A stretch of 64,000 bases of DNA, taken from sequence record PZ445431.1; one strand, written 5' to 3'. A program made the position numbers and the translations under genes. The stretch is from a phage. Shown here one piece after another: positions 4,455 through 42,686 of the stretch. Positions within the stretch are counted from its first letter, which is position 1; the number at the start of each line of letters is the position of its first letter. The notes beneath the pieces were generated by a model. The model worked only from the letters and a program-made list of their open reading frames with translations. It was not told where the DNA came from and searched no databases.

Positions 4455-4483
4455 TTGCAAAATGACCCAAAACAAAGTAGAAT
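4455..4483 (+). promoter_or_regulatory. promoter upstream of nrdA (TTGCAA-N17-TAGAAT)
   Basis: -35 at 4455-4460, -10 at 4478-4483. Confidence 0.55.
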
Positions 4484-4521
4484 ATTTCCTAAATCCTGAT
4501 AACTACAAAAAGGAAAGCCAA

Positions 4522-6855
4522 ATGAGCCATCGTATCGAAAAAGTAATTAAACGTGACGGTACTGTTCAGGACTTTGCTCCTGAAAAACTCAATGATTGGG
4601 CTGCATGGGCATGTAAAGATACTGACGTAAGTTGGTCTGCCGTAGTTATGGCTGCCCTGAAAAATCTACCCAAAGGTGTTGTAGACTCCGATACACTCCA
4701 AGATGTGTTAATTAAAGCCGCTGAAGGTCTTATCAAAGACAACCCAGCATATGATACTGTAGCAAAGGAATTACGTCTTGCGCAGATGCGTAAACGCCTA
4801 TATGATTCTTTTGAACCTCCTTCTCTGCGTTTCTTCCACGATCATATGGTTCGTGTCGGCGCTTGGGAAGACATGAGTGCATGGATTAGCGATGATCAGT
4901 TTGAAGCTCTGAACCAAGTTATTGATCATGATCGTGATCGTTTATTCACCAGTGGTGGACTGAAACAGTTCTTCGACAAGTATTCCCGTCGTAATATTGC
5001 AACTGGTGAAATTTATGAAACCCCGCAGTTTGCCTACATGGGTATGGCAATGGCGATGTTATCTCAACCTAACTGGACAATTCTCGATGCAATCGACCTC
5101 TACAACGCAATGTCACTCCATAAAATCAACGTGCCGACTCCACCTCTCGTGGGTCTTAGGAGCAGCGACCGCGGTTTTGCTTCTTGTTGTCTTGTTGATA
5201 GTACTGATACCCTCGATTCAATCGACACAGCCGAGCACATCGTCTTCAAAATGGTCGCAGCCAGAGCGGGAATCGGGTATCATCTTGAAAGCCGATCAAT
5301 TGCTGATCCGGTGCGAAATGGGGCATTCCCGCATTCCGGAAAACTGCCATATTATCGACACATTGACCGATCAGTAAAAGCTAACACTCAGCAAACCCGT
5401 GGTGGTTCTGCTACTGTGTCTTACCCATACTTCGATCCTGAAATCATTCAGTTGATGCAGGTTAAGCAGCAACGTGCTACAGACGAGAATAAAATCGATA
5501 AGATGGATTACTCTCTGAGCTTTAACAACCTTCTGTTAAAACGTTACCTGAAAAATGAAGATATTACGCTAATGTCCTACTTCTACGCACCAGAAGTTCA
5601 TGAAGCGTTTTATGGCGAAGATGAGGCTAAGTTTGAAGAAATCTACGTGGCAGCGGAGAAACGTGTGGCATCTCTTACAAAGATCGACCACGAAGGAAAA
5701 ACAATTCCAGCAGCTCCTAGAATCTCTGCAAAAGAAATCCTAGATACTTGGTTACGTATCCGTATGGAAACAGGGCGTATGTATGCTCATCACATTGGTG
5801 AATCTAACCGTCATGGTAACTTCCTTGACCCGATTCGTATGACCAACCTTTGTGTTGAAATTACTCAGCCAACCCGTCCATTCCATCACATTACGGAGCT
5901 GTATAAGACCCAAGATCAGTTAGACGATATGCGTCCAGAGGACATTGGTGAAGTATCTCTGTGTAACTTAGGTGGTGTTGTACTAGGTCGCATGGAATCT
6001 CTGGCTGAATGGGAGAAAACTTGCTACATCCTTCTGAAATTCGTTGATACAATCATCGAGATTCAGGATTATCCATTCCCAACCATGGAATACACGGCTA
6101 AGAAACGTCGTAACGTTGGTATTGGTCTGATGAACGCAGCAGGTGCAATGGCAGCAGAAGGTTTGGCTTACGAAGGTGTTGAAGCACGTAACTGGATTCA
6201 CCGTGAAGCTGAAAAGCTGTCCTACTTCCTGCACAAAGCCTCTGTACGTCTGGCCAAAGAACAGGGTGCATGTGACTGGTTTAATCGTACTAAGCCTTCA
6301 CAAGGAACTCTGGTAATCGACACGTATAAGAAAACTGTTGATGAACTGGTAACTGTAGGTCTAGAAATGGATTGGGAATCTCTACGTGCAGATATCCTGA
6401 AATATGGTATGCGTAACTCCGTTCTGACTGCTCAGATGCCGGGTGAAAGTTCCTCTGTACTGCTAGGTGTTACTAACTCTATTGAACCGCCTCGTAAGAT
6501 TGTATCTATCAAGGGTAGTGCAGTGAATAAAGTAATTGCAATTGCTCCAGGTGCAACTGATTGGGATACATTAATGAGCTATAAACTGGCTTATGATGTA
6601 GATCGTATCGAGTGGATCAAATGGGTAGCAACCATGCAGAAATTCTTCAGTCAGTCTATAAGTACGAATATGTACTATGACTACACCAAGTTTGAGAATG
6701 AAATTATTCCTGGCCCAGTAGTAGTTCGTGACTTCATGACTGCTGTTAAGTACGGTTGGAAAACTTTCTACTATGCAAACTTTAACACCGAGAATGGTGG
6801 TGGTGCAGGGGAAGAAACTGCTGCTGGATGCGCATCAGGTGGTTGTAACCTGTAA
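4522..6855 (+). CDS. nrdA: ribonucleoside-diphosphate reductase large subunit (class Ia)
   Basis: ATP-cone N-terminus (VIKRDGTVQDF), about 778 aa from ATG 4522 with AAGGAAAG RBS; track start 4462 lies inside the promoter. Confidence 0.9.
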   Translation: MSHRIEKVIKRDGTVQDFAPEKLNDWAAWACKDTDVSWSAVVMAALKNLPKGVVDSDTLQDVLIKAAEGLIKDNPAYDTVAKELRLAQMRKRLYDSFEPPSLRFFHDHMVRVGAWEDMSAWISDDQFEALNQVIDHDRDRLFTSGGLKQFFDKYSRRNIATGEIYETPQFAYMGMAMAMLSQPNWTILDAIDLYNAMSLHKINVPTPPLVGLRSSDRGFASCCLVDSTDTLDSIDTAEHIVFKMVAARAGIGYHLESRSIADPVRNGAFPHSGKLPYYRHIDRSVKANTQQTRGGSATVSYPYFDPEIIQLMQVKQQRATDENKIDKMDYSLSFNNLLLKRYLKNEDITLMSYFYAPEVHEAFYGEDEAKFEEIYVAAEKRVASLTKIDHEGKTIPAAPRISAKEILDTWLRIRMETGRMYAHHIGESNRHGNFLDPIRMTNLCVEITQPTRPFHHITELYKTQDQLDDMRPEDIGEVSLCNLGGVVLGRMESLAEWEKTCYILLKFVDTIIEIQDYPFPTMEYTAKKRRNVGIGLMNAAGAMAAEGLAYEGVEARNWIHREAEKLSYFLHKASVRLAKEQGACDWFNRTKPSQGTLVIDTYKKTVDELVTVGLEMDWESLRADILKYGMRNSVLTAQMPGESSSVLLGVTNSIEPPRKIVSIKGSAVNKVIAIAPGATDWDTLMSYKLAYDVDRIEWIKWVATMQKFFSQSISTNMYYDYTKFENEIIPGPVVVRDFMTAVKYGWKTFYYANFNTENGGGAGEETAAGCASGGCNL

Positions 6856-6864
6856 TAAAAACAA

Positions 6865-6890
6865 GGAGATCTTCGGGTCTCCTTTTTCTT
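6865..6890 (+). terminator. rho-independent terminator candidate
   Basis: GGAGAT-CTTCGG-GTCTCC hairpin followed by TTTTTCTTT. Confidence 0.6.
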
Positions 6891-6901
6891 TGAAATTTTA
6901 C

Positions 6902-6930
6902 TTGCTAATCGCTACCAGATTTGCTATAAT
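6902..6930 (+). promoter_or_regulatory. promoter (TTGCTA-N17-TATAAT) upstream of HNH/nrdB
   Basis: -35 at 6902-6907, -10 at 6925-6930. Confidence 0.65.
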
Positions 6931-6956
6931 ATCTCCATTAGTTAAGGAGATTAGTT

Positions 6957-7472
6957 TTGATAACACAAGATGAATTAAAAAGGATTCTGGAGTATAATCC
7001 AGATGAAGGAACATTTACTTGGTTAAATAACCAAGAAGTACACAATAAAGTAAGAGGACTACCTGCTGGTTGTTTAAAACCCCACTCAGTAGATCCTAAC
7101 CGAAAAGACTTAGTAATACAAATCAATGGTAAGAAATATCCTGCACAAAATATTGCTTTCCTGTACATGACAGGAAACTTACCTAAAGTTATGGTTGATC
7201 ATATAGATGGAGATTCACTAAACTATAAGTGGACTAATCTAAGAGAAGCAGACTGGCAGTTAAATAGTCAAAATAGAAAAACCAGTAAAAACAATATATT
7301 GGGTACTAAGAATATTCGGAAGAAAGGGTCTGGATTTCAAGTTAGAAAATCCATTAACGGAAAAGAATACGTGAAAACTCTTCCAACTCTCGAAGAGGCG
7401 ATAGAGTATCGAGATTCTTTAATCCTCTCTATAACCAAAGACCCAACACTACTTAGAAACACAGATAAATAG
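6957..7472 (+). CDS. HNH homing endonuclease with AP2-type DNA-binding domain (free-standing, between nrdA and nrdB)
   Basis: N-terminal ELK..LEYNPDEG.F.W motif, DHIDGD...N...NLR HNH core, AP2-like SGFQVRK..NGKEY; TTG start after AAGGAG; paralogous to 28254, 39420, 41576. Confidence 0.8.
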   Translation: MITQDELKRILEYNPDEGTFTWLNNQEVHNKVRGLPAGCLKPHSVDPNRKDLVIQINGKKYPAQNIAFLYMTGNLPKVMVDHIDGDSLNYKWTNLREADWQLNSQNRKTSKNNILGTKNIRKKGSGFQVRKSINGKEYVKTLPTLEEAIEYRDSLILSITKDPTLLRNTDK

Positions 7473-7480
7473 GAGAACTA

Positions 7481-8626
7481 ATGACAACTTTACTTAACTT
7501 AAACTGGGATCATACCAATAAAGATCTATTTCTCGGTGATTCTCTTGGTATTGCAGATTATGTACGAGTAGCTCATCCAGAGCTAGAAAGGCTGGCGTTA
7601 TTAGCTCGCTCTCAATTCTGGACTGAAACTGAAATCAGTCTGGAAGCTGATAAGAAACAATGGCCAAACCTTCCGCGTGATATTCAGGAAATTACTCTCC
7701 TGAACTTAGCATGGCAGACCCAAACAGATTCTTTCATTAGCCGTGCTCCTGAAGCAGCTATTATGCCGCTTGTAAGCCGTCCTGAATTGGAGGGTATGCT
7801 CAAGCAGTGGAGCTACTTCGAAGATCTGCATAGCCGTGCATATAGTAACATTATTCGTAACGTTCTGACTGATCCAGCAGAATTTATTGATTCTGTAACT
7901 AAAAACCAAGAAGCATTTGCACGTATCGCAGATTCTGTTGAACTGTTTGATGAATTGTATCTGTTAGGTCAGTATTTCCTTGCAGTACGTGATCATCGTG
8001 GTGATAATACTTATCCAGAAACTGAGTTCCCTGAAGTTAAACGTGAAACTCAGGCTAAGCTGTTAGATGCTTACTTTGCAATCTACGGTCTGGAAGCAAT
8101 GCAGTTCTACGCATCCTTTGCATGTACCTTTGCTCTAGCAGAGAACGATATTCTGCAAGGTATTGCCAAGAACCTGCAACTAATCGCTAAAGATGAAGCT
8201 CTACATACTCAAATGTCTAAAGCTATCATCCAGATTATGTTCCAGCAGTTTGATAAAGATCTGGTAGACGAAGCATTAGCTAAAGCACCAGCACAACTCC
8301 TAAAAACTCTGAAAACTGAGATTGAATGGGGCCACTTTATCTTTAAAGGCCGCAGTCTGATTGGTTTGAACGCAGAATTGCTTGAAGAATACCTTTACTT
8401 TGTAGGACGTAACGCATTTATGCACATTGGTGTAGAATGGCCAAGCCACTTACCTGTAATTACTAAGAACCCTATTCCGTGGATTATGAACTGGCTGGAT
8501 ACTACTTCCTTACAGCCTGCCCCACAAGAAATCCAGATTGGTGCAGCATATCGTGTGGGTCAGGTAACTGAAACTTCTGCTGATACCCTGAAAGATCTGG
8601 GTAACGAATTTGAGGGCATGTTCTAA
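7481..8626 (+). CDS. nrdB: ribonucleoside-diphosphate reductase small subunit (class Ia)
   Basis: 381 aa, di-iron RNR small-subunit layout, directly downstream of nrdA. Confidence 0.85.
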   Translation: MTTLLNLNWDHTNKDLFLGDSLGIADYVRVAHPELERLALLARSQFWTETEISLEADKKQWPNLPRDIQEITLLNLAWQTQTDSFISRAPEAAIMPLVSRPELEGMLKQWSYFEDLHSRAYSNIIRNVLTDPAEFIDSVTKNQEAFARIADSVELFDELYLLGQYFLAVRDHRGDNTYPETEFPEVKRETQAKLLDAYFAIYGLEAMQFYASFACTFALAENDILQGIAKNLQLIAKDEALHTQMSKAIIQIMFQQFDKDLVDEALAKAPAQLLKTLKTEIEWGHFIFKGRSLIGLNAELLEEYLYFVGRNAFMHIGVEWPSHLPVITKNPIPWIMNWLDTTSLQPAPQEIQIGAAYRVGQVTETSADTLKDLGNEFEGMF

Positions 8627-25273: not shown

Positions 25274-25855
25274 ATGCACGGAATATCCTTACCCATTCCA
25301 GGGTTTGAGGAGTACTTAGTAAGTTTGGATGGGTTAGTATTTAGTATCAAATCAAACAAAATACTAACCCAAATAACCAGTAATTACGGATACTTATCTA
25401 TACGTCTCCATAAAAATGGTCAACAGAGAAATACCGGTGTACATAGGATTTTAGCATGTGCATTTAAGAAATTACCAAGTCTAGACTCTGAACTAGAAGT
25501 TGACCATATTAACACAGACATTACTTATTGGGGTCTTAATAACTTACAAGTGCTCACAAAAGAGCAGCATCTAGAAAAGACTTTAAAAGATAAAGGATTT
25601 AGTAAACTAAACCATGATAATTGTTGTAAGGATTGTGGTAAAGCTATTTCTTTAAAAGCTGAAAAATGTCAGGAGTGCTCTTCACATAAACCAAAAGATA
25701 TCTCTATAACTAAAGAAATAATCGAGGTTACAGTAAGAGAGCTAGGCTGGTCAGGTGCAGGGAGAAAGTTAAGTTATTCAGATAATGGGTTGCGTAAAAG
25801 ATACACTTCTTTAGGAGGCAATCCTAAAGAACTTAAAAAGTTAAAGGTACTATAG
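25274..25855 (+). CDS. HNH homing endonuclease (NUMOD-type N-terminus)
   Basis: IPGFEEYLVSLDGLVFS N-terminal motif and VDHINTD...NNLQVL HNH core; stop codon lies inside the acceptor stem of the next tRNA. Confidence 0.75.
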   Translation: MHGISLPIPGFEEYLVSLDGLVFSIKSNKILTQITSNYGYLSIRLHKNGQQRNTGVHRILACAFKKLPSLDSELEVDHINTDITYWGLNNLQVLTKEQHLEKTLKDKGFSKLNHDNCCKDCGKAISLKAEKCQECSSHKPKDISITKEIIEVTVRELGWSGAGRKLSYSDNGLRKRYTSLGGNPKELKKLKVL

Positions 25856-25926: not shown

Positions 25927-26000
25927 ACATCCATAGCTCAATTGGTTAGAGCTACCGCCTCTTAAGCGGTAGGTTCTAGGTTCAAGTCCTTCATTGGAGA
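25927..26000 (+). tRNA. tRNA-Lys-like (anticodon CUU); acceptor/T stems imperfect
   Basis: Canonical D-arm GCTCAATTGGTTAGAGC and anticodon arm ACCGC-CTCTTAA-GCGGT; acceptor pairing poor by eye. Confidence 0.4.
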
Positions 26001-26108: not shown

Positions 26109-26273
26109 ATGAAATTATTTCGTTTAAAAGTAAGTGATTTACGTTCTAGCAAAGATCGTAAGAAGTATCCACTAGCCCATTACGGTAAAGATGAAAACGA
26201 AGTGATGGCGGAATTTGGTATTAATCACCCTTACTTAAAAGTTTATTCTATTAAGGAAGTCTATGCTAATTAA
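26109..26273 (+). CDS. hypothetical small protein (54 aa)
   Basis: AAGGA RBS then ATG; not in track (<60 aa). Confidence 0.4.
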   Translation: MKLFRLKVSDLRSSKDRKKYPLAHYGKDENEVMAEFGINHPYLKVYSIKEVYAN

Positions 26274-26736
26274 TAAAGTTTTAGCTGCCTTAAACCTTCC
26301 TGATAACTTCATTATAGATGATAAGCTCATAAGAGCTTATATGAGCAAATATAACGAAATTTCAGGTAAAGAAGGTAAGTTAAAAACTTCAGAGTTTAGA
26401 TTCTGTTATCGAATGGCAGCCTTAAATCTCTTAAAATATAAAAGGGAGCATAAAATACCTATAACGGAAGGTTTTGTATATGTAATTGGTAATCCAGCAT
26501 GGCCAGGCATGTATAAAATAGGTATGACTATAGATGTGAATGAGAGGTTAACAAGTTATCAAACTTATTCACCTAATAGAGACTACAAGCTATACCATTT
26601 CAGATTTTCGTCGGATAAAAGACGTACAGAGAAAGAATTACATAATCTTCTTAAAGATTATAGAGTATCTGGAGAATGGTTTGAAGTACCTGTACTAGAT
26701 GCTTTTAAATTATTAGTAGAAAAATTGGATTGCTAG
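26263..26736 (+). CDS. T5orf172-domain (GIY-YIG-like) protein, putative homing endonuclease
   Basis: GFVYVIGNPAWPGMYKIGMTIDVNERL matches the T5orf172/GIY-YIG-like core; 3' end overlaps the next tRNA acceptor stem. Confidence 0.6.
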   Translation: MLINKVLAALNLPDNFIIDDKLIRAYMSKYNEISGKEGKLKTSEFRFCYRMAALNLLKYKREHKIPITEGFVYVIGNPAWPGMYKIGMTIDVNERLTSYQTYSPNRDYKLYHFRFSSDKRRTEKELHNLLKDYRVSGEWFEVPVLDAFKLLVEKLDC

Positions 26737-28144: not shown

Positions 28145-28235
28145 GGAAAAGCAAATAGACTGGCGACTAAACCCGATTGGAAATCGGTTGAGTAATAGCA
28201 ATATTGCCTTATGGGTTCAACTCCCATCTTTTCCG
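28145..28235 (+). tRNA. tRNA-Ser (anticodon GGA), type II
   Basis: Perfect acceptor GGAAAAG/CTTTTCC, anticodon arm CCCGA-TTGGAAA-TCGGT, long variable arm, T-arm ATGGG-TTCAACT-CCCAT, encoded CCA. Confidence 0.7.
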
Positions 28236-28253
28236 CCAAATATTGGAGTATAG

Positions 28254-28769
28254 ATGCTAACACAACAAGAATTAAAATCCGTGTTGTTATATAAACCAGA
28301 TACTGGAGAGTTTTTCTGGAAATATAGATCTGATTTAGATAGTCAATGGAATAGTAAATATGCTGGAACTAGGGCAGGATTTATTAATGAACTAGGCTAT
28401 TGGAAGATAACTCTAGGAAATACTAGCTGGTTAGCACATCGTCTAGCATTCTTATACATGACTGGGGAAATACCAGATCTAATTGACCACAAGGATCAAG
28501 ATAAGTCCAATACTAAATGGGATAACTTACGAATAGCCACTGTATCACAGAATCAGGCTAATGCTAAATTAAGGGTAGATAATACCTCTGGGTACAAAAA
28601 TGTAACTTGGCATAAGCAAAGAAATAAGTGGAAAGTAGAAGTACGTAAAGATGGCAAACTCCATTATGGTGGACTTTTTACAGAACTAGATAAAGCTGTA
28701 AATAAAGCTAATAATCTTAGACGTGAGTTATTCGGGGAATTTGCAGTATATGAAGAGTTTATGGGGTAG
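28254..28769 (+). CDS. HNH homing endonuclease with AP2-type DNA-binding domain
   Basis: Same architecture as 6957..7472 (ELK..LYKPDTG.F.W, IDHKDQDKSNTKWDNLR, AP2-like SGYKNVTWHK); stop lies inside the next tRNA acceptor stem. Confidence 0.8.
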   Translation: MLTQQELKSVLLYKPDTGEFFWKYRSDLDSQWNSKYAGTRAGFINELGYWKITLGNTSWLAHRLAFLYMTGEIPDLIDHKDQDKSNTKWDNLRIATVSQNQANAKLRVDNTSGYKNVTWHKQRNKWKVEVRKDGKLHYGGLFTELDKAVNKANNLRRELFGEFAVYEEFMG

Positions 28770-28856
28770 GTCAATCCAACGGCTGGCGCTGGACTCCGAC
28801 TTGAAATCGGTTGATCGTAGTGATACGGTGTAAGGGTTCGATCCCCTTACCTACCT
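28765..28856 (+). tRNA. tRNA-Ser (anticodon UGA), type II
   Basis: Perfect acceptor GGTAGGT/ACCTACC, anticodon loop CTTGAAA, long variable arm, T-arm AAGGG-TTCGATC-CCCTT, encoded CCA. Confidence 0.7.
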
Positions 28857-28879
28857 CCAATTAACTATAAGGAATCCTT

Positions 28880-39015: not shown

Positions 39016-39423
39016 ATGTCAGATCGTTACTATACTCAGATGGCTAACCATTACAATATGGCTCCGTATGAATTGAACATCGCATTACGTGACCTCGATT
39101 CACCAGAGCGTGCAAAACTTGAGAAAAAGGCGGGAATTCGTATGTCTAGCAAGGGCAAGAAACTTACTCGTATTGACTTAAATACCATGTTAATGGAAGA
39201 GCTTGGCGTGAATATTGAAGGTCAGAAGTTGCCTCTCAATGTTCTTGAAACGATGCTGGATAAAGTCAAAAAGAAAACCTATAAGAAAGTACAAGTACCG
39301 GAAGGCAGGCTAAAAGCCCCTTATCAGGCTGCTGTATCTGAGTGCTTAGGTGCTACCTTAGATCTTAGCACTGCAACTGTTAAAGTGATGCGTGCGTTTT
39401 TAGAGGCAGTTAATAAATTGTGA
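39016..39423 (+). CDS. hypothetical protein (135 aa)
   Basis: ATG after conserved leader. Confidence 0.55.
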   Translation: MSDRYYTQMANHYNMAPYELNIALRDLDSPERAKLEKKAGIRMSSKGKKLTRIDLNTMLMEELGVNIEGQKLPLNVLETMLDKVKKKTYKKVQVPEGRLKAPYQAAVSECLGATLDLSTATVKVMRAFLEAVNKL

Positions 39424-39947
39424 TTACCCAAGAAAGATTGAAGGAGCTTCTAGAGTACAATCCAGATACAGGGATATTTATATGGAAGAGCCGAAAGATA
39501 GATAGAAGTGGTTTTAACAAGCAATTCGCAGGAAAAGTTGCTGGCAATCCTCAAAATAACGGTTATATCAATATTACTGTTGATTCCGAAGTTCATGGGG
39601 CACATAGATTAGCTTTTCTTTACATGGAAGGCTATATGCCTGCAAGGGTAGACCACGAAAACATGGTTAGGTCTGATAACAAATGGCTTAACCTACGAGA
39701 AGCTACAGTCTCTCAAAATGGTGCTAATGCGTTAAAGTATTCTAACAATAGTTCTGGATATAAGAACGTATACTGGACAAAGAAAACGTGTAAATGGCAA
39801 GTACAGGTTATGAAAGATGGTAAATCCTACTCGGGAGGATACTTCACAAACCTCAAAGATGCTGTAGAAACTGCCAATGAGTTAAGATTTGAATTATTTG
39901 GGGAATTTGCCCTATATGAACCATTTAAAGGAGATAAACATGAGTAA
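39420..39947 (+). CDS. HNH homing endonuclease with AP2-type DNA-binding domain
   Basis: GTG start; ERLKELLEYNPDTGIFIW, VDHENMVRSDNKWLNLR, AP2-like SGYKNVYWTKK; paralogue of 6957, 28254, 41576. Confidence 0.8.
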   Translation: MITQERLKELLEYNPDTGIFIWKSRKIDRSGFNKQFAGKVAGNPQNNGYINITVDSEVHGAHRLAFLYMEGYMPARVDHENMVRSDNKWLNLREATVSQNGANALKYSNNSSGYKNVYWTKKTCKWQVQVMKDGKSYSGGYFTNLKDAVETANELRFELFGEFALYEPFKGDKHE

Positions 39948-40713: not shown

Positions 40714-41576
40714 TGAAAAAAGAATTTAACCTGCATGAAATGTTAGTAGTACCAGACGATGTTAACCTGTTCTTCGTAGGAGATATTCACGGCTGTAATG
40801 ATATGCTGGAAGATGCTCTTAAACTAGCAGGATATAAAGAAAAGCGTGACTATGTTGTCTGTGTTGGCGACTTAATTGACCGTGGCCCGCAGAACTTACA
40901 GGTTCTAGCCAAATTCTTATATAACCCACGTTTCCGTAGCGTTCGTGGCAACCATGATCAGTTTATGATTGCCGGGGATTATGCCAACTGGATGTATAAT
41001 GGTGGAATGTGGGCAATGAATGATCTGGATACCGATACAATTAAAGGTATCGCAGAAGATATGGCAGTTAAAATGCCAGTATTCATGACTGTACTCCATC
41101 GTGGCAAGAAATACGGTATTGTTCATGGTGGAATACCATTCCAGTATAAAGATGCGGGATTCGATGTACATACACCTAATTGGGACGATATTATTGATCA
41201 TATCGCTGCAAGTGAAAATGATCCTAATGATCATCCTAGTTATTACATTGAGCCATATCTATGGGATCGTGATGTAATTCAGGAAATTGGGTTCATCCTA
41301 GCACGTGGAGGAGCTACTCATGAGTACTTCAATCGTTATGCTAGCTTTAAGAATCAGTTAGTAGTTGAAGTACCTCCAGTTAAAGGTGTGGACTATGTAT
41401 TCCATGGGCACACAGGTGTACCATACCCAATCCTGTACCAGAACCGCGTATACCTAGATACTGGCGGTGTGTTCAACGGGAAGTTGACGGTTGCGCAAGT
41501 TAATGATGAAGCCGGTAAGATTATGACATTTACCACAGATAAAAATGATAGCTGTGGTGTACAGAGGATTCTGTAA
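40713..41576 (+). CDS. serine/threonine protein phosphatase (calcineurin-like metallophosphoesterase, lambda-PPase type)
   Basis: GDIHGC, GDLIDRG, GNHD motifs. Confidence 0.8.
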   Translation: MKKEFNLHEMLVVPDDVNLFFVGDIHGCNDMLEDALKLAGYKEKRDYVVCVGDLIDRGPQNLQVLAKFLYNPRFRSVRGNHDQFMIAGDYANWMYNGGMWAMNDLDTDTIKGIAEDMAVKMPVFMTVLHRGKKYGIVHGGIPFQYKDAGFDVHTPNWDDIIDHIAASENDPNDHPSYYIEPYLWDRDVIQEIGFILARGGATHEYFNRYASFKNQLVVEVPPVKGVDYVFHGHTGVPYPILYQNRVYLDTGGVFNGKLTVAQVNDEAGKIMTFTTDKNDSCGVQRIL

Positions 41577-42088
41577 TGGCCGGTATTTCTCAGGAATACC
41601 TGAAGAGTAGACTAACCTATAATCCTGAAACATGGGAGTTTCGGTGGAAGCCTAACCCAAATGCTAGTAAAACATGGAATACTAGGTTTGCTGGTAAAGA
41701 AGCAGGTACTCTAAATAAAACTACCGGATATATCAATTTAACAATTGATGGGGTTAAGCATGGTGCACATAGAATGGCTTTCTTATACATGGAGGGCTAT
41801 TTACCTACTAAAGTGGATCACAAAGATACAATAAGAACAAATAATGCTTGGAGTAACCTTAGGGCTGCTGATAATGCTCAGAATACTTGGAATGCTGGTA
41901 TGAAAAGCTCCAATACTTCAGGATTTAAAGGTGTTTACTTAGATAAGCGTATAAATAAATATGTAGGTAGAGTTCGCTTTAGAGACAAAAGGTTCTCTAC
42001 TAAATATTATGAAAATGCTGAGGATGCAGCTAAAGAGTTGGAAATCCTTAGAGAACAGTTACATAAAGAATTTGCGAGGAATGAATAA
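41576..42088 (+). CDS. HNH homing endonuclease with AP2-type DNA-binding domain
   Basis: Same family as 6957, 28254, 39420; KVDHKDTIRTNNAWSNLR HNH core and AP2-like SGFKGVYLDK. Confidence 0.8.
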   Translation: MAGISQEYLKSRLTYNPETWEFRWKPNPNASKTWNTRFAGKEAGTLNKTTGYINLTIDGVKHGAHRMAFLYMEGYLPTKVDHKDTIRTNNAWSNLRAADNAQNTWNAGMKSSNTSGFKGVYLDKRINKYVGRVRFRDKRFSTKYYENAEDAAKELEILREQLHKEFARNE

Positions 42089-42686
42089 TGCGTGTTAAAT
42101 TCTGGTCGGATTTGCACTTAGACCACCCTGGAACTCTTCGCTTCCGTCCGTGGTTTAAGAATATGAAAGAACATGATGAATATATCCTAGATACTTTGTC
42201 CAAGCACATTGGCAAGCGTACTAAGCTCGTCTTGCTAGGGGATATTGCCGTGGGGCGTGAAGGGTTGGCTAAATTAAAGTCGGTTATCCACAATGTGCCT
42301 AACCAGTTAATCATGGGCAACCACGATGCTGAACGTCAGGGTCTGCATATTAAAGATCTTGTAGACGTTTATGATGATATTCAGGCTCTAGGTAAGCAAA
42401 CAGGTGGTGGCAAGAAGTTTTGGCTGTCACACTGTCACACTGTCCATTGCACGAAGCAGAACTTCGTGGTAAGCTAAACATTCACGGACATGTGCACACC
42501 AATTCTGTGCGCGACCCACGTTATATCAACATCTCTTTTGAGATGAGTAAGACTCCTATTCCTCTAGAAGATATTGTATCTGGCAAGTTCACAAGCTATG
42601 ATAGAGTAGTTAACTGCACTACTGGTGAAGTACTCCAAATCGATGAAGATGTGGCAGCAGTATTGAGGGGAGATATCAATGTTTGA
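42088..42686 (+). pseudogene. calcineurin-like metallophosphoesterase interrupted by a frameshift (8 bp tandem duplication)
   Basis: ORFs 42088..42477 (DLHLDH, GDIAVG, GNHD) and 42420..42686 (HGHVH) are two halves of one phosphoesterase; frames switch at CTGTCACA CTGTCACA (42424-42439); removing one copy restores ...FWLSHCPLHEAELRG... Confidence 0.65.

What the first reader, a model, noticed from the sequence alone, without database searches (positions are those of the whole stretch)
6957..7472. Four paralogous HNH-AP2 homing endonucleases; one wedged between nrdA and nrdB
Genes at 6957-7472, 28254-28769, 39420-39947 and 41576-42088 share the same N-terminal motif, HNH core and AP2-type DNA-binding segment. 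The first separates the two class Ia RNR subunit genes, a classic homing-endonuclease landing site. Multiple active copies suggest ongoing intron-less homing.
Basis: partly seen in the sequence, partly recalled or inferred. Interest (0 to 1): 0.45.

Follow-up and report, generated by a model that had tools for sequence, protein, structure and literature searches.

The report
Four HNH-AP2 homing endonucleases, T5-like phage
The window is a T5-like coliphage (TrudiRoth) carrying four real, intact selfish "homing endonuclease" genes of one well-known family, and comparison with relatives shows they come and go between phages as such genes do, so the finding is correct but ordinary.

Summary
Confirmed and already known. 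The window is essentially Escherichia phage TrudiRoth (Epseptimavirus, T5-like). All four ORFs exist at the stated coordinates. They are 33-53% identical and are the only members of this family in the window.

The nrdA/nrdB copy is the orthologue (97.8% nt) of phage T5 hegH (P-TflVIII).

Mobility is supported by comparison. Each copy is present in a minority of relatives (75/444, 31/415 and 8/343 records; about 4 phages for the tRNA-Ser copy), and clean empty sites exist for three of the four.

The nrdA/nrdB copy is far more conserved than its flanks across two genera (dS 0.08-0.2 against 0.58-0.82) and is under purifying selection (dN/dS about 0.05). It travels with a roughly 132-bp, almost purely synonymous recoding of the start of nrdB. 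The third copy is linked to a 7-substitution patch in 19 bp.

Cleavage activity is not shown. Three of the four genes are already annotated as homing endonucleases. Interest is low.

The parts
6957..7472 (+). H1: HNH_3 + AP2-fold free-standing homing endonuclease gene (171 aa, TTG start); orthologue of T5 hegH / P-TflVIII
6863..6884 (+). Terminator-like hairpin after nrdA, conserved in genomes with and without H1
   Evidence: Scan; alignment; annotated as a terminator in phage Sw2.
6902..6930 (+). Sigma-70-like promoter (TTGCTA, 17-nt spacer, TG-TATAAT). In empty-site genomes it lies about 40 nt upstream of the nrdB start codon; H1 is inserted just downstream of its -10 element
   Evidence: 10 of 12 consensus match with an extended -10. 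Junction alignment with Sw2. A 'promoter' feature is annotated here in the T5 records.
6944..6950 (+). Shine-Dalgarno sequence (TAAGGAG) six nt before the TTG start of H1
   Evidence: Read directly from the sequence.
4462..6855 (+). nrdA, class I RNR large subunit; upstream neighbour of H1
   Evidence: Pfam ATP-cone, Ribonuc_red_lgN and lgC; GenBank annotation.
7481..8626 (+). nrdB, RNR small subunit; downstream neighbour of H1
   Evidence: Pfam Ribonuc_red_sm; GenBank annotation.
7481..7612 (+). H1-linked haplotype of the nrdB 5' end. It has about 35 differences from the allele of H1-less genomes, nearly all synonymous. It is the inferred target or immunity and co-conversion tract
   Evidence: The first 100 bp are 97-100% identical in four H1+ genomes, including three Tequintavirus genomes whose flanks are 88-91% identical. 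They are only 79-80% identical in four H1-less genomes, three of which have flanks 93-100% identical. Only 2 amino-acid differences result.
28254..28769 (+). H2: HNH_3 + AP2 homing endonuclease gene in the spacer between two tRNA-Ser genes
   Evidence: ORF; Pfam. Empty site with a 12-nt spacer in HildyBeyeler and the same arrangement in mar004NP2. Orthologues (92-98% aa) at the same site in ESCO40, MSP1 and UTK0010.
28145..28238 (+). tRNA-Ser (anticodon GGA), 15 nt upstream of H2
   Evidence: ARAGORN; GenBank annotation.
28765..28859 (+). Annotated tRNA-Ser (UGA anticodon) whose first 5 nt overlap the H2 stop codon. Identical in H2+ and H2-less genomes
   Evidence: GenBank annotation. Not called by ARAGORN. 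38.3 bits to Rfam tRNA-Sec, below the gathering score. Identical in HildyBeyeler and ESCO40/MSP1, one difference in UTK0010.
39420..39947 (+). H3: HNH_3 + AP2 homing endonuclease gene (GTG start overlapping the upstream stop codon), inserted in the last codons of the gene upstream of thioredoxin
   Evidence: ORF; Pfam. Present in 31 of 415 records. Empty sites in S132, 100268_sal2 and 26175III.
39391..39409 (+). H3-linked patch: 7 substitutions in 19 bp directly upstream of the insertion point
   Evidence: Segregates perfectly in 4 H3+ against 3 H3-less genomes whose flanks are otherwise mostly 97-100% identical to the window.
41576..42088 (+). H4: HNH_3 + AP2 homing endonuclease gene between two metallophosphatase genes (ATG start in the TAATG overlap with the upstream stop). 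Not annotated in MZ501109
   Evidence: ORF. Pfam HNH_3 at 41.7 bits and AP2 at 24.8 bits. Unannotated gap in the TrudiRoth record. Present in 8 of 343 records; relatives carry unrelated small ORFs here.

Best explanation
The four genes are free-standing (intron-less) homing endonuclease genes of the HNH_3/I-HmuI-like His-Me-finger family, each fused to a C-terminal AP2-fold DNA-binding domain. They sit in a T5-like phage.

Inferred mechanism. When this phage co-infects a cell with a relative that lacks a given copy, the enzyme recognises a long site in or beside the empty locus through its N-terminal beta-domain and its AP2 domain. The Asp-His/Asn metal site then nicks or cuts the DNA. Recombinational repair from the HEG-bearing genome copies the endonuclease gene, plus a short stretch of flanking DNA, into the recipient. 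The HEG-bearing genome protects itself because the adjacent sequence is recoded: about 132 bp at the start of nrdB for H1, and 19 bp at the end of the upstream gene for H3.

Shown here: family and fold; intact catalytic residues; patchy presence with precise empty sites for H1-H3; H1 spreading across genera more recently than its flanks diverged; purifying selection on H1; HEG-linked recoded tracts for H1 and H3; and H1's placement behind the nrdB promoter.

Inferred, not shown: the cleavage activity itself, the exact target sites, and whether the enzymes nick or make double-strand cuts.
For: Family and catalytic residues:
- Pfam HNH_3 is above its cut-off in all four, and all four hit PHROG 99 'HNH endonuclease' at E = 1e-46 to 1e-66.
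- A 7-member family profile hits I-HmuI (1U3E) at E = 9.5e-6. The conserved DH and two conserved Asn residues align with the VVDH, TNLR and KIN motifs of I-HmuI.
- D81, H82, R96, N103, N106 and N113 are invariant in 82 homologues.

Fold:
- The AF2 model has pLDDT 92.3, and its C-terminus has three strands followed by a helix.
- 3572 homologues were found, many with HNH_3 plus AP2 assigned by Pfam.

Patchy presence:
- H1 is in 75 of 444 flank-matching phage records. The rest show a clean empty site or a different HNH-AP2 gene (31-43% aa identity) in the same intergenic region.
- H3 is in 31 of 415 records and H4 in 8 of 343.
- H2 is in 4 phages, always between the two tRNA-Ser genes.

Lateral spread and selection on H1:
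- H1 is 95-98% identical between genera whose nrdA and nrdB flanks are 88-91% identical.
- dS is 0.08-0.20 for H1 against 0.58-0.82 for nrdB in the same genome pairs, and dN/dS is about 0.05.

Linked recoding:
- The nrdB 5' tract.
- The H3 patch.

Expression: H1 sits directly after a strong promoter and has a consensus Shine-Dalgarno sequence.

Literature:
- HNH-AP2 is a recognised HEG family (PMC5714182; PMC10448857).
- HEGs are reported as the main source of differences among T5-like genomes (PMC10644984).
- The nrdA-nrdB HNH gene of T5-likes has already been compared with T4 mobE (PMC3326045).
Against: - No enzymatic evidence exists here, and I found no open-access paper showing cleavage by P-/F-TflVIII. 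The 'F-TflVIII nicking' label is only a GenBank note in the DT57C record.
- The Pfam AP2 model does not reach its threshold in any of the four and is absent from H1. Whole-chain Foldseek did not recover AP2.
- The H1 clade has Gln-Asn where 76 of 82 family members have His-Arg. The effect on catalysis is unknown.
- For H2, the divergent upstream tRNA-Ser allele does not segregate with the gene, so no immunity tract was identified.
- For H4, the site shows replacement of other small ORFs rather than a simple insertion, and no clean empty site was seen.
- The haplotype comparisons rest on 4-5 genomes per class.
Confidence: 0.85

Rival explanations
1. The genes are relics: former homing endonucleases that are now fixed passengers and no longer mobile or catalytically active. 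On this view their patchy distribution reflects deletion in some lineages, not ongoing invasion.
For: - The homing cycle predicts decay after fixation.
- The H1 clade has lost the near-invariant His-Arg pair.
- H4 sits in a cassette-like variable region where other small ORFs alternate.
- Activity was not tested.
Against: - All four ORFs are intact and keep every invariant catalytic residue.
- H1 orthologues show dN/dS about 0.05 and H3 orthologues 0.08-0.15, which indicates purifying selection, not decay.
- The Gln-Asn variant is conserved across a clade only 53-56% identical to H1, so it is a maintained state.
- H1 dS is several-fold lower than the dS of flanking nrdB across genera. Deletion alone cannot explain this.
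Confidence: 0.08
2. The proteins mainly benefit the phage rather than themselves. They could act as weapons that cut competing T5-like genomes (marker exclusion), as drivers of segmental amplification of nearby loci such as tRNA genes to escape host defence, or as AP2-type DNA-binding regulators. Homing would then be a by-product.
For: - Purifying selection on H1 is strong.
- Several copies per genome is the norm in this phage group, with up to 7 places per record.
- H2 and two further HEGs of other families lie inside the tRNA cluster.
- T4-type SegB in a tRNA cluster is reported to promote amplification of anti-defence loci (PMC13096335 abstract).
- The window differs from the TrudiRoth record by a 979-bp indel between two tRNA-Lys copies in that cluster.
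Against: - Nothing here separates benefit to the phage from selfish drive. The comparative signatures (patchy presence, linked recoded tracts) are exactly those expected of plain homing.
- The 979-bp indel is not adjacent to any of the four HNH-AP2 genes.
- A purely regulatory role would not require conserved catalytic residues.
Confidence: 0.06
3. One or more of these HNH enzymes is the nickase that makes the site-specific single-strand interruptions characteristic of T5-like virion DNA. That would make it a housekeeping enzyme, not a mobile element.
For: - I-HmuI-type HNH enzymes are nickases (my recollection of Shen et al. 2004, JMB).
- The DT57C record calls the H1 orthologue a 'nicking homing endonuclease'.
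- T5 and BF23 DNA carry specific nicks (PMC10644984 abstract).
Against: - Each of the four genes is missing from most T5-like genomes. Genome nicks are described as a shared property of T5 and BF23 (PMC10644984 abstract); that they are common to the whole group is my recollection.
- H1 is absent from T5_ev219 and many Tequintavirus records.
Confidence: 0.01

Closest known systems
Phage T5 hegH (putative H-N-H endonuclease P-TflVIII; labelled 'nicking homing endonuclease F-TflVIII' in the DT57C record)
   Same: H1 is its orthologue: 97.8% nt identity over the gene and its junctions, at the same position between nrdA and nrdB.
   Different: Nothing substantive. H1 sits in a different genus (Epseptimavirus) whose flanks are only about 88-91% identical to Tequintavirus flanks. 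Activity is unpublished in the literature I could search.
I-HmuI (PDB 1U3E), the intron-encoded HNH nicking homing endonuclease of Bacillus phage SPO1
   Different: I-HmuI is intron-encoded, has an N-terminal NUMOD4-type motif and a C-terminal helix-turn-helix DNA-binding domain. The window proteins are free-standing, have a different N-terminal motif (L..Y.P..G.F.W) and carry a C-terminal AP2 fold.
HNH-AP2 homing endonucleases of cyanobacteria, ciliates and phages (Magnani et al. 2004, as cited), and the 'IPA-HNH' genes of Vibrio phage ICP1 (Barth et al. 2023, PMC10448857)
   Same: N-terminal HNH plus C-terminal AP2 architecture, free-standing genes, enrichment next to RNR and other essential genes, and location at boundaries of genetic exchange.
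   Different: The ICP1 IPA-HNH domains are too divergent for the Pfam HNH_3 model. The window proteins score above the HNH_3 threshold.
T4-family mobE (free-standing HNH gene between nrdA and nrdB)
   Same: Same landing site between the two aerobic RNR subunit genes. The analogy is already drawn for T5-like phages in PMC3326045.
   Different: MobE is placed in a different His-Me-finger group (classical HNH, PF01844-type, group 1) from HNH_3 (group 2) in PMC5714182. It is a convergent use of the same site, not an orthologue.
[quoted passage not shown] 2004, cited)
   Same: H2 likewise lies inside the tRNA gene cluster of a T5-like phage.
   Different: I did not test orthology. F-TflIV is listed with the classical HNH group, not HNH_3.

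Membership tests
HNH_3 / I-HmuI-like His-Me finger endonucleases (Pfam PF13392) | Sequence match to the family model above the curated threshold | tested here: met
   31.6, 49.3, 39.3 and 41.7 bits against a cut-off of 24.8.
HNH_3 / I-HmuI-like His-Me finger endonucleases (Pfam PF13392) | Catalytic Asp-His pair and the Asn residues of the beta-beta-alpha-metal motif (D74/H75, N87, N96 in I-HmuI; the numbering and roles are recalled from Shen et al. 2004) | tested here: met
   The profile alignment to 1U3E puts the family DH on the VVDH motif and the conserved Asn residues on the TNLR and KIN motifs. D81, H82, N103 and N106 are invariant and N94 is present in 81 of 82 homologues and in all four window proteins.
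HNH_3 / I-HmuI-like His-Me finger endonucleases (Pfam PF13392) | Fold similar to I-HmuI | tested here: met
HNH_3 / I-HmuI-like His-Me finger endonucleases (Pfam PF13392) | Near-invariant His-Arg pair preceding the beta-beta-alpha motif (H56-R57 in I-HmuI) | tested here: not met
   Met in H2, H3 and H4. Not met in H1, whose clade has Gln-Asn (6 of 82 sequences). This is a conserved family feature whose role I could not establish, not a formal membership criterion.
AP2/ERF DNA-binding domain (Pfam PF00847) | Sequence match above the curated threshold | tested here: not met
   H2 15.1, H3 16.5 and H4 24.8 bits against a cut-off of 33.3; no hit in H1. Many full-length homologues do carry a precomputed PF00847 hit.
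AP2/ERF DNA-binding domain (Pfam PF00847) | Three-stranded antiparallel sheet packed on one helix, superposable on solved AP2 domains | tested here: met
Free-standing homing endonuclease gene (functional class) | Sporadic presence at a fixed locus among close relatives, with an intact empty allele | tested here: met
   H1 in 75 of 444 records, H3 in 31 of 415, H4 in 8 of 343, H2 in about 4 phages. Empty alleles were aligned for H1 (Sw2, beppo, NG_S8, T5_ev219), H2 (HildyBeyeler, mar004NP2) and H3 (S132 and others). No clean empty site was seen for H4.
Free-standing homing endonuclease gene (functional class) | Gene genealogy discordant with its flanks (lateral transfer) | tested here: met
   For H1 only: 95-98% identity against 88-91% in the flanks, and dS 0.08-0.20 against 0.58-0.82.
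Free-standing homing endonuclease gene (functional class) | Recoded or co-converted tract linked to the gene (self-immunity at the target) | tested here: met
   Met for H1 (7481-7612) and H3 (39391-39409). Tested and not found for H2. Not tested for H4.
Free-standing homing endonuclease gene (functional class) | Site-specific cleavage of the HEG-less allele and super-Mendelian inheritance in mixed infection | not testable with these tools
   Requires in vitro cleavage assays and phage crosses.

The most novel reading that the evidence does not exclude
The H1/T5-hegH clade may be a mechanistically distinct sub-type of HNH-AP2 enzyme. It has Gln-Asn in place of the otherwise near-invariant His-Arg pair, and its self-immunity appears to require recoding of about 45 consecutive nrdB codons. 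If so, the sharply bounded, almost purely synonymous 132-bp tract would mark an unusually long or bipartite recognition region inside an essential gene. It would also offer a ready-made natural 'resistant versus sensitive' allele pair for working out how a prokaryotic AP2 domain reads DNA.
Probability: 0.15. Interest if true: 0.4.

Novelty: already known. Interest (0 to 1): 0.15.

Why it matters
Little changes for the field. HNH-AP2 homing endonucleases are a recognised family, T5-like phages are known to be full of them, and the gene between nrdA and nrdB has been in the T5 annotation for some twenty years.

Three practical points remain:
- The fourth copy (41576-42088) is missing from the GenBank annotation of TrudiRoth.
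- The HEG-linked recoded tracts next to H1 (nrdB codons 1-44) and H3 (19 bp) give concrete, cheap predictions of where these uncharacterised enzymes cut. TrudiRoth and several H3-less or alternative-HEG relatives belong to the same BASEL collection (GenBank locus tags bas28/30/33; that 'bas' denotes the BASEL phage collection is my recollection), so homing crosses are feasible.
- The nrdA-nrdB spacer of Markadamsvirinae holds at least four different HNH-AP2 genes or none. That makes it a good natural system for studying competition between homing endonucleases for one site.

Tried and rejected
1. Single-sequence phmmer of H3 against PDB gave only noise (E = 0.18 and 0.82). A 7-member profile was needed to reach I-HmuI, and it still did not reach any AP2 structure.
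3. The first homologue search with H1 alone returned only 11 proteins. An alignment query returned 3572.
4. I hypothesised that the strongly divergent tRNA-Ser(GGA) allele upstream of H2 is an H2-linked immunity tract. I rejected this. ESCO40 shares the window allele, but the H2-bearing phages MSP1 and UTK0010 carry the other allele.
5. I first read 'H2 is unique to TrudiRoth' from the flank-inclusive megablast (2 of 328 records). tblastn corrected this: four phages carry it at the same site within mosaic flanks.
6. I suspected H2 orthologues might sit at a different site, which would mean ectopic transposition. I rejected this, because all are between the two tRNA-Ser genes.
7. The nrdA 3' end (6750-6850) also has alternative haplotypes, but they do not segregate with H1, so I did not count them as part of the H1 module.
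8. ARAGORN does not call the annotated tRNA-Ser(UGA) at 28765-28859, nor either tRNA-Ser in HildyBeyeler. Rfam gives only a sub-threshold tRNA-Sec-like hit. I left this unresolved.
9. One script failed on a wrong file name; no result was lost.

Full report
PROVENANCE

A 4.3-kb stretch around the finding is 100% identical to Escherichia phage TrudiRoth (MZ501109; locus tags bas30; Demerecviridae, Markadamsvirinae, Epseptimavirus). Window positions 1-44030 match that record base for base, except that the window lacks 979 bp lying between two tRNA-Lys(AAG) copies. The window also runs about 480 bp past the right end of the deposited record; this is a coordinate calculation. It is therefore TrudiRoth or a near-identical isolate. 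The record already annotates H1, H2 and H3 as 'putative homing endonuclease'. H4 lies in an unannotated gap between two 'serine/threonine phosphatase' CDSs.

OBSERVATION

They align end to end at 32-53% identity. The 36 invariant columns cover the N-terminal L-x5-Y-x-P-x4-F-x-W motif, the FLYM-G-P segment, the D-H dipeptide, N-L-R, two further Asn, and a G-x-K motif in the C-terminal part. An HMM built from the four recovers only these four among all 597 stop-to-stop ORFs of at least 40 aa in the window; the next best has E = 0.6.

Two further annotated homing endonuclease genes in the tRNA cluster belong to other families:
- 25274-25855: NUMOD4 plus a weak HNH_3 match.
- 26263-26736: T5orf172/MUG113.

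WHAT THE PROTEINS ARE

All four exceed the curated Pfam HNH_3 threshold and hit PHROG 99 'HNH endonuclease' at E = 1e-46 to 1e-66.

A profile of seven family members hits the solved HNH homing endonuclease I-HmuI (1U3E) at E = 9.5e-6. The seven are the four window proteins plus three alternative occupants of the nrdA-nrdB site. The family D-H lies on the VVDH motif of I-HmuI, and the conserved Asn residues lie on its TNLR and KIN motifs. By my recollection of Shen et al. 2004, these are D74/H75 (metal ligand and general base), N87 and N96.

In an 82-sequence alignment, D81, H82, R96, N103, N106 and N113 (H1 numbering) are invariant.

The AP2 claim is weaker at sequence level. Pfam AP2 is sub-threshold in H2-H4 and absent in H1. 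However:
- A profile search finds 3572 homologues at E <= 1e-8, many with precomputed HNH_3 plus AP2.
- An AlphaFold2 model of H1 (pLDDT 92.3, pTM 0.80) ends in three strands followed by a helix.

The stated architecture is therefore right.

One oddity concerns H1 and its clade (P0001 and P0003-P0006, down to 53% identity). They have Gln-Asn where 76 of 82 family members have His-Arg. Because the change is conserved across a deep clade, it is a maintained variant, not decay.

SITE 1 (H1, nrdA/nrdB)

The neighbours are a class I RNR large subunit and small subunit.

The spacer contains, in order:
1. the nrdA stop codon;
2. a terminator-like hairpin (6863-6884);
3. a strong sigma-70-like promoter (TTGCTA, 17-nt spacer, TG-TATAAT; 6902-6930);
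4. a TAAGGAG Shine-Dalgarno sequence;
5. the TTG start of H1.

In the empty-site phage Sw2 the same terminator and promoter are followed directly by the nrdB ribosome-binding site. H1 therefore sits between the nrdB promoter and nrdB and is presumably read from that promoter.

Of 444 phage records that match the flanks, 75 carry H1. The others show one of two states:
- a 1101-1104-bp span, which is the empty site;
- a different gene of similar size at the same place.

Three such alternatives (falkor, IrmaTschudi, S113) are HNH-AP2 proteins only 31-43% identical to H1. One of them (S113) is inserted upstream of the promoter instead of downstream of it. The spacer is thus a contested landing site. 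H1 itself is the orthologue of T5 hegH, 'putative H-N-H-endonuclease P-TflVIII' (97.8% nt identity).

EVIDENCE FOR MOBILITY OF H1

Compared with the window, three Tequintavirus genomes that carry H1 (DT57C, SA001, HildyBeyeler) show the following identities:
- H1: 95-98%.
- Left spacer: 97-100%.
- First 100 bp of nrdB: 97-99%.
- Most of the remaining nrdA and nrdB sequence: 88-92% (as low as 83% in one nrdA segment).

Conversely, four H1-less genomes are only 79-80% identical in those first 100 bp of nrdB. Three of them (Sw2, beppo, NG_S8) have flanks 93-100% identical to the window.

The two haplotypes differ at about 35 positions between 7481 and 7612, and the difference ends sharply at about 7612. 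It causes only two amino-acid changes (A14K, Q42R).

Synonymous divergence of H1 between these genomes is 0.08-0.20, against 0.58-0.82 for the rest of nrdB in the same pairs. dN/dS of H1 is about 0.05.

H1, together with about 132 bp of recoded nrdB, therefore moved between genera long after the flanks diverged, and it is kept functional. The recoded tract is the expected signature of a target made resistant in the HEG-bearing genome, of co-conversion, or of both. I infer that the recognition or cleavage site lies there or at the insertion point. This inference is not tested.

SITE 3 (H3)

H3 is present in 31 of 415 records. In the empty allele (S132; flanks mostly 99.7-100% identical to the window), the upstream gene ends ...AINKHE* and overlaps the thioredoxin start codon. 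In the window, H3 is inserted after the AAT AAA codons. The upstream gene then ends ...AVNKL*, and H3 itself ends in the old ...KHE* codons.

Seven substitutions within the 19 bp just upstream of the insertion (39391-39409) segregate perfectly in four H3-bearing against three H3-less genomes. dN/dS is 0.08-0.15.

SITE 2 (H2)

H2 fills the spacer between tRNA-Ser(GGA) and the annotated tRNA-Ser(UGA), and its stop codon overlaps the latter. That spacer is 12 nt in HildyBeyeler, and mar004NP2 has the same arrangement.

A flank-inclusive DNA search suggested that H2 is unique to TrudiRoth. tblastn then found 92-98% identical orthologues in ESCO40, MSP1 and UTK0010. All lie at the same place between the two tRNA-Ser genes, within otherwise mosaic flanks.

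The very different tRNA-Ser(GGA) allele next to H2 in the window is not linked to H2.

SITE 4 (H4)

H4 is present in 8 of 343 records. Its ATG lies in the TAATG overlap with the upstream metallophosphatase stop codon. Relatives have unrelated small ORFs starting at the same ATG. This is a cassette-like replacement, and I saw no clean empty site.

ARE THEY PARALOGUES?

Each copy has a near-identical orthologue elsewhere, at 95-98% identity. H1 is closer to metagenomic proteins (53-56%) and to falkor gp78 (43%) than to H2-H4 (33-36%). H2 and H3 (54% identical to each other) are about as close to proteins of other phages.

tblastn finds this family in 3308 phage records at 5443 places, with up to 7 places per T5-like genome. 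The four copies are co-resident family members with separate histories, not recent duplications within this genome.

COMPARISON WITH THE LITERATURE

- HNH_3 proteins with AP2 domains are listed as a standard homing-endonuclease architecture, grouped with I-HmuI (PMC5714182).
- The HNH-AP2 combination and its enrichment next to RNR genes and at recombination boundaries are described for phages (PMC10448857).
- Homing endonuclease genes are reported as the main source of differences among T5-like genomes (PMC10644984).
- The HNH gene between nrdA and nrdB of T5 and AKFV33 was compared with T4 mobE in 2012 (PMC3326045).
- I found no open-access paper showing enzymatic activity of P-/F-TflVIII. 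[quoted passage not shown] 2004, cited).

VERDICT

The kind of element, the landing site, and this very sequence with its annotation are all already known, so novelty and interest are low.

Enzyme activity and target sites remain inferred.

Noticed in passing
window 41576-42088: H4 is an intact 170-aa HNH_3/AP2 ORF, but the corresponding stretch of the TrudiRoth GenBank record (MZ501109, 92546-93058) carries no CDS. This is an annotation gap.
   Followed up: yes
window 42088-42686 (duplication at about 42424-42439): The metallophosphoesterase gene just downstream of H4 carries an 8-bp tandem duplication (GTCACACT GTCACACT). Relatives encode an intact 196-aa protein. The duplication splits the gene into ORFs of 129 aa and 88 aa, so this is a pseudogene, a split gene or a sequencing error. 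It lies about 340 bp from H4.
   Followed up: partly
window about 25934-25990 (junction): The window lacks 979 bp that are present in the TrudiRoth record between two tRNA-Lys(AAG) copies sharing a 57-bp identical repeat. The missing segment holds tRNA-Gly and three small ORFs. It looks like a repeat-mediated deletion or insertion inside the HEG-rich tRNA cluster. The window also extends about 480 bp beyond the right end of the deposited record.
   Followed up: partly
window 25274-25855 and 26263-26736: There are two more homing endonuclease genes of other families in the tRNA cluster. One is NUMOD4 plus a weak HNH_3 match (I-HmuI-like N-terminus) and overlaps tRNA-Asp. The other is a T5orf172/MUG113 (GIY-YIG-related) gene and overlaps tRNA-Lys. 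The window therefore holds at least six HEGs from three families.
   Followed up: partly
window 6750-6855 (nrdA 3' end); L005 (S113) 1100-1706: The last 100 bp or so of nrdA exist in at least two haplotypes (17-23 differences per 100 bp) that do not follow the presence of H1. In S113 a different HNH-AP2 gene is inserted upstream of the nrdB promoter and the nrdA 3' end differs again. This may be the target or immunity tract of a second endonuclease lineage.
   Followed up: partly
window 28765-28859; L007 893-983 and 996-1090: The tRNA-Ser genes annotated in GenBank beside H2 are not all called by ARAGORN, which misses the UGA-anticodon copy in the window and both copies in HildyBeyeler. They reach only about 38-39 bits on Rfam tRNA-Sec, below the gathering score. 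The two tRNA-Ser(GGA) alleles differ at about 25 positions, with compensatory stem changes.
   Followed up: partly
window 6938-7168, minus strand: A 76-aa antisense ORF lies inside H1. In the DT57C RefSeq record its counterpart is annotated as a separate 'HNH endonuclease' CDS whose note reads 'putative H-N-H-endonuclease P-TflVIII'. This is almost certainly a spurious annotation carried over from older T5 records.
   Followed up: no
H1 residues 64-65 (window 7146-7151): The H1/T5-hegH clade has Gln-Asn where 76 of 82 family members, and I-HmuI (H56-R57), have His-Arg. The change is conserved across a clade down to 53% identity. Its functional meaning is unknown.
   Followed up: partly
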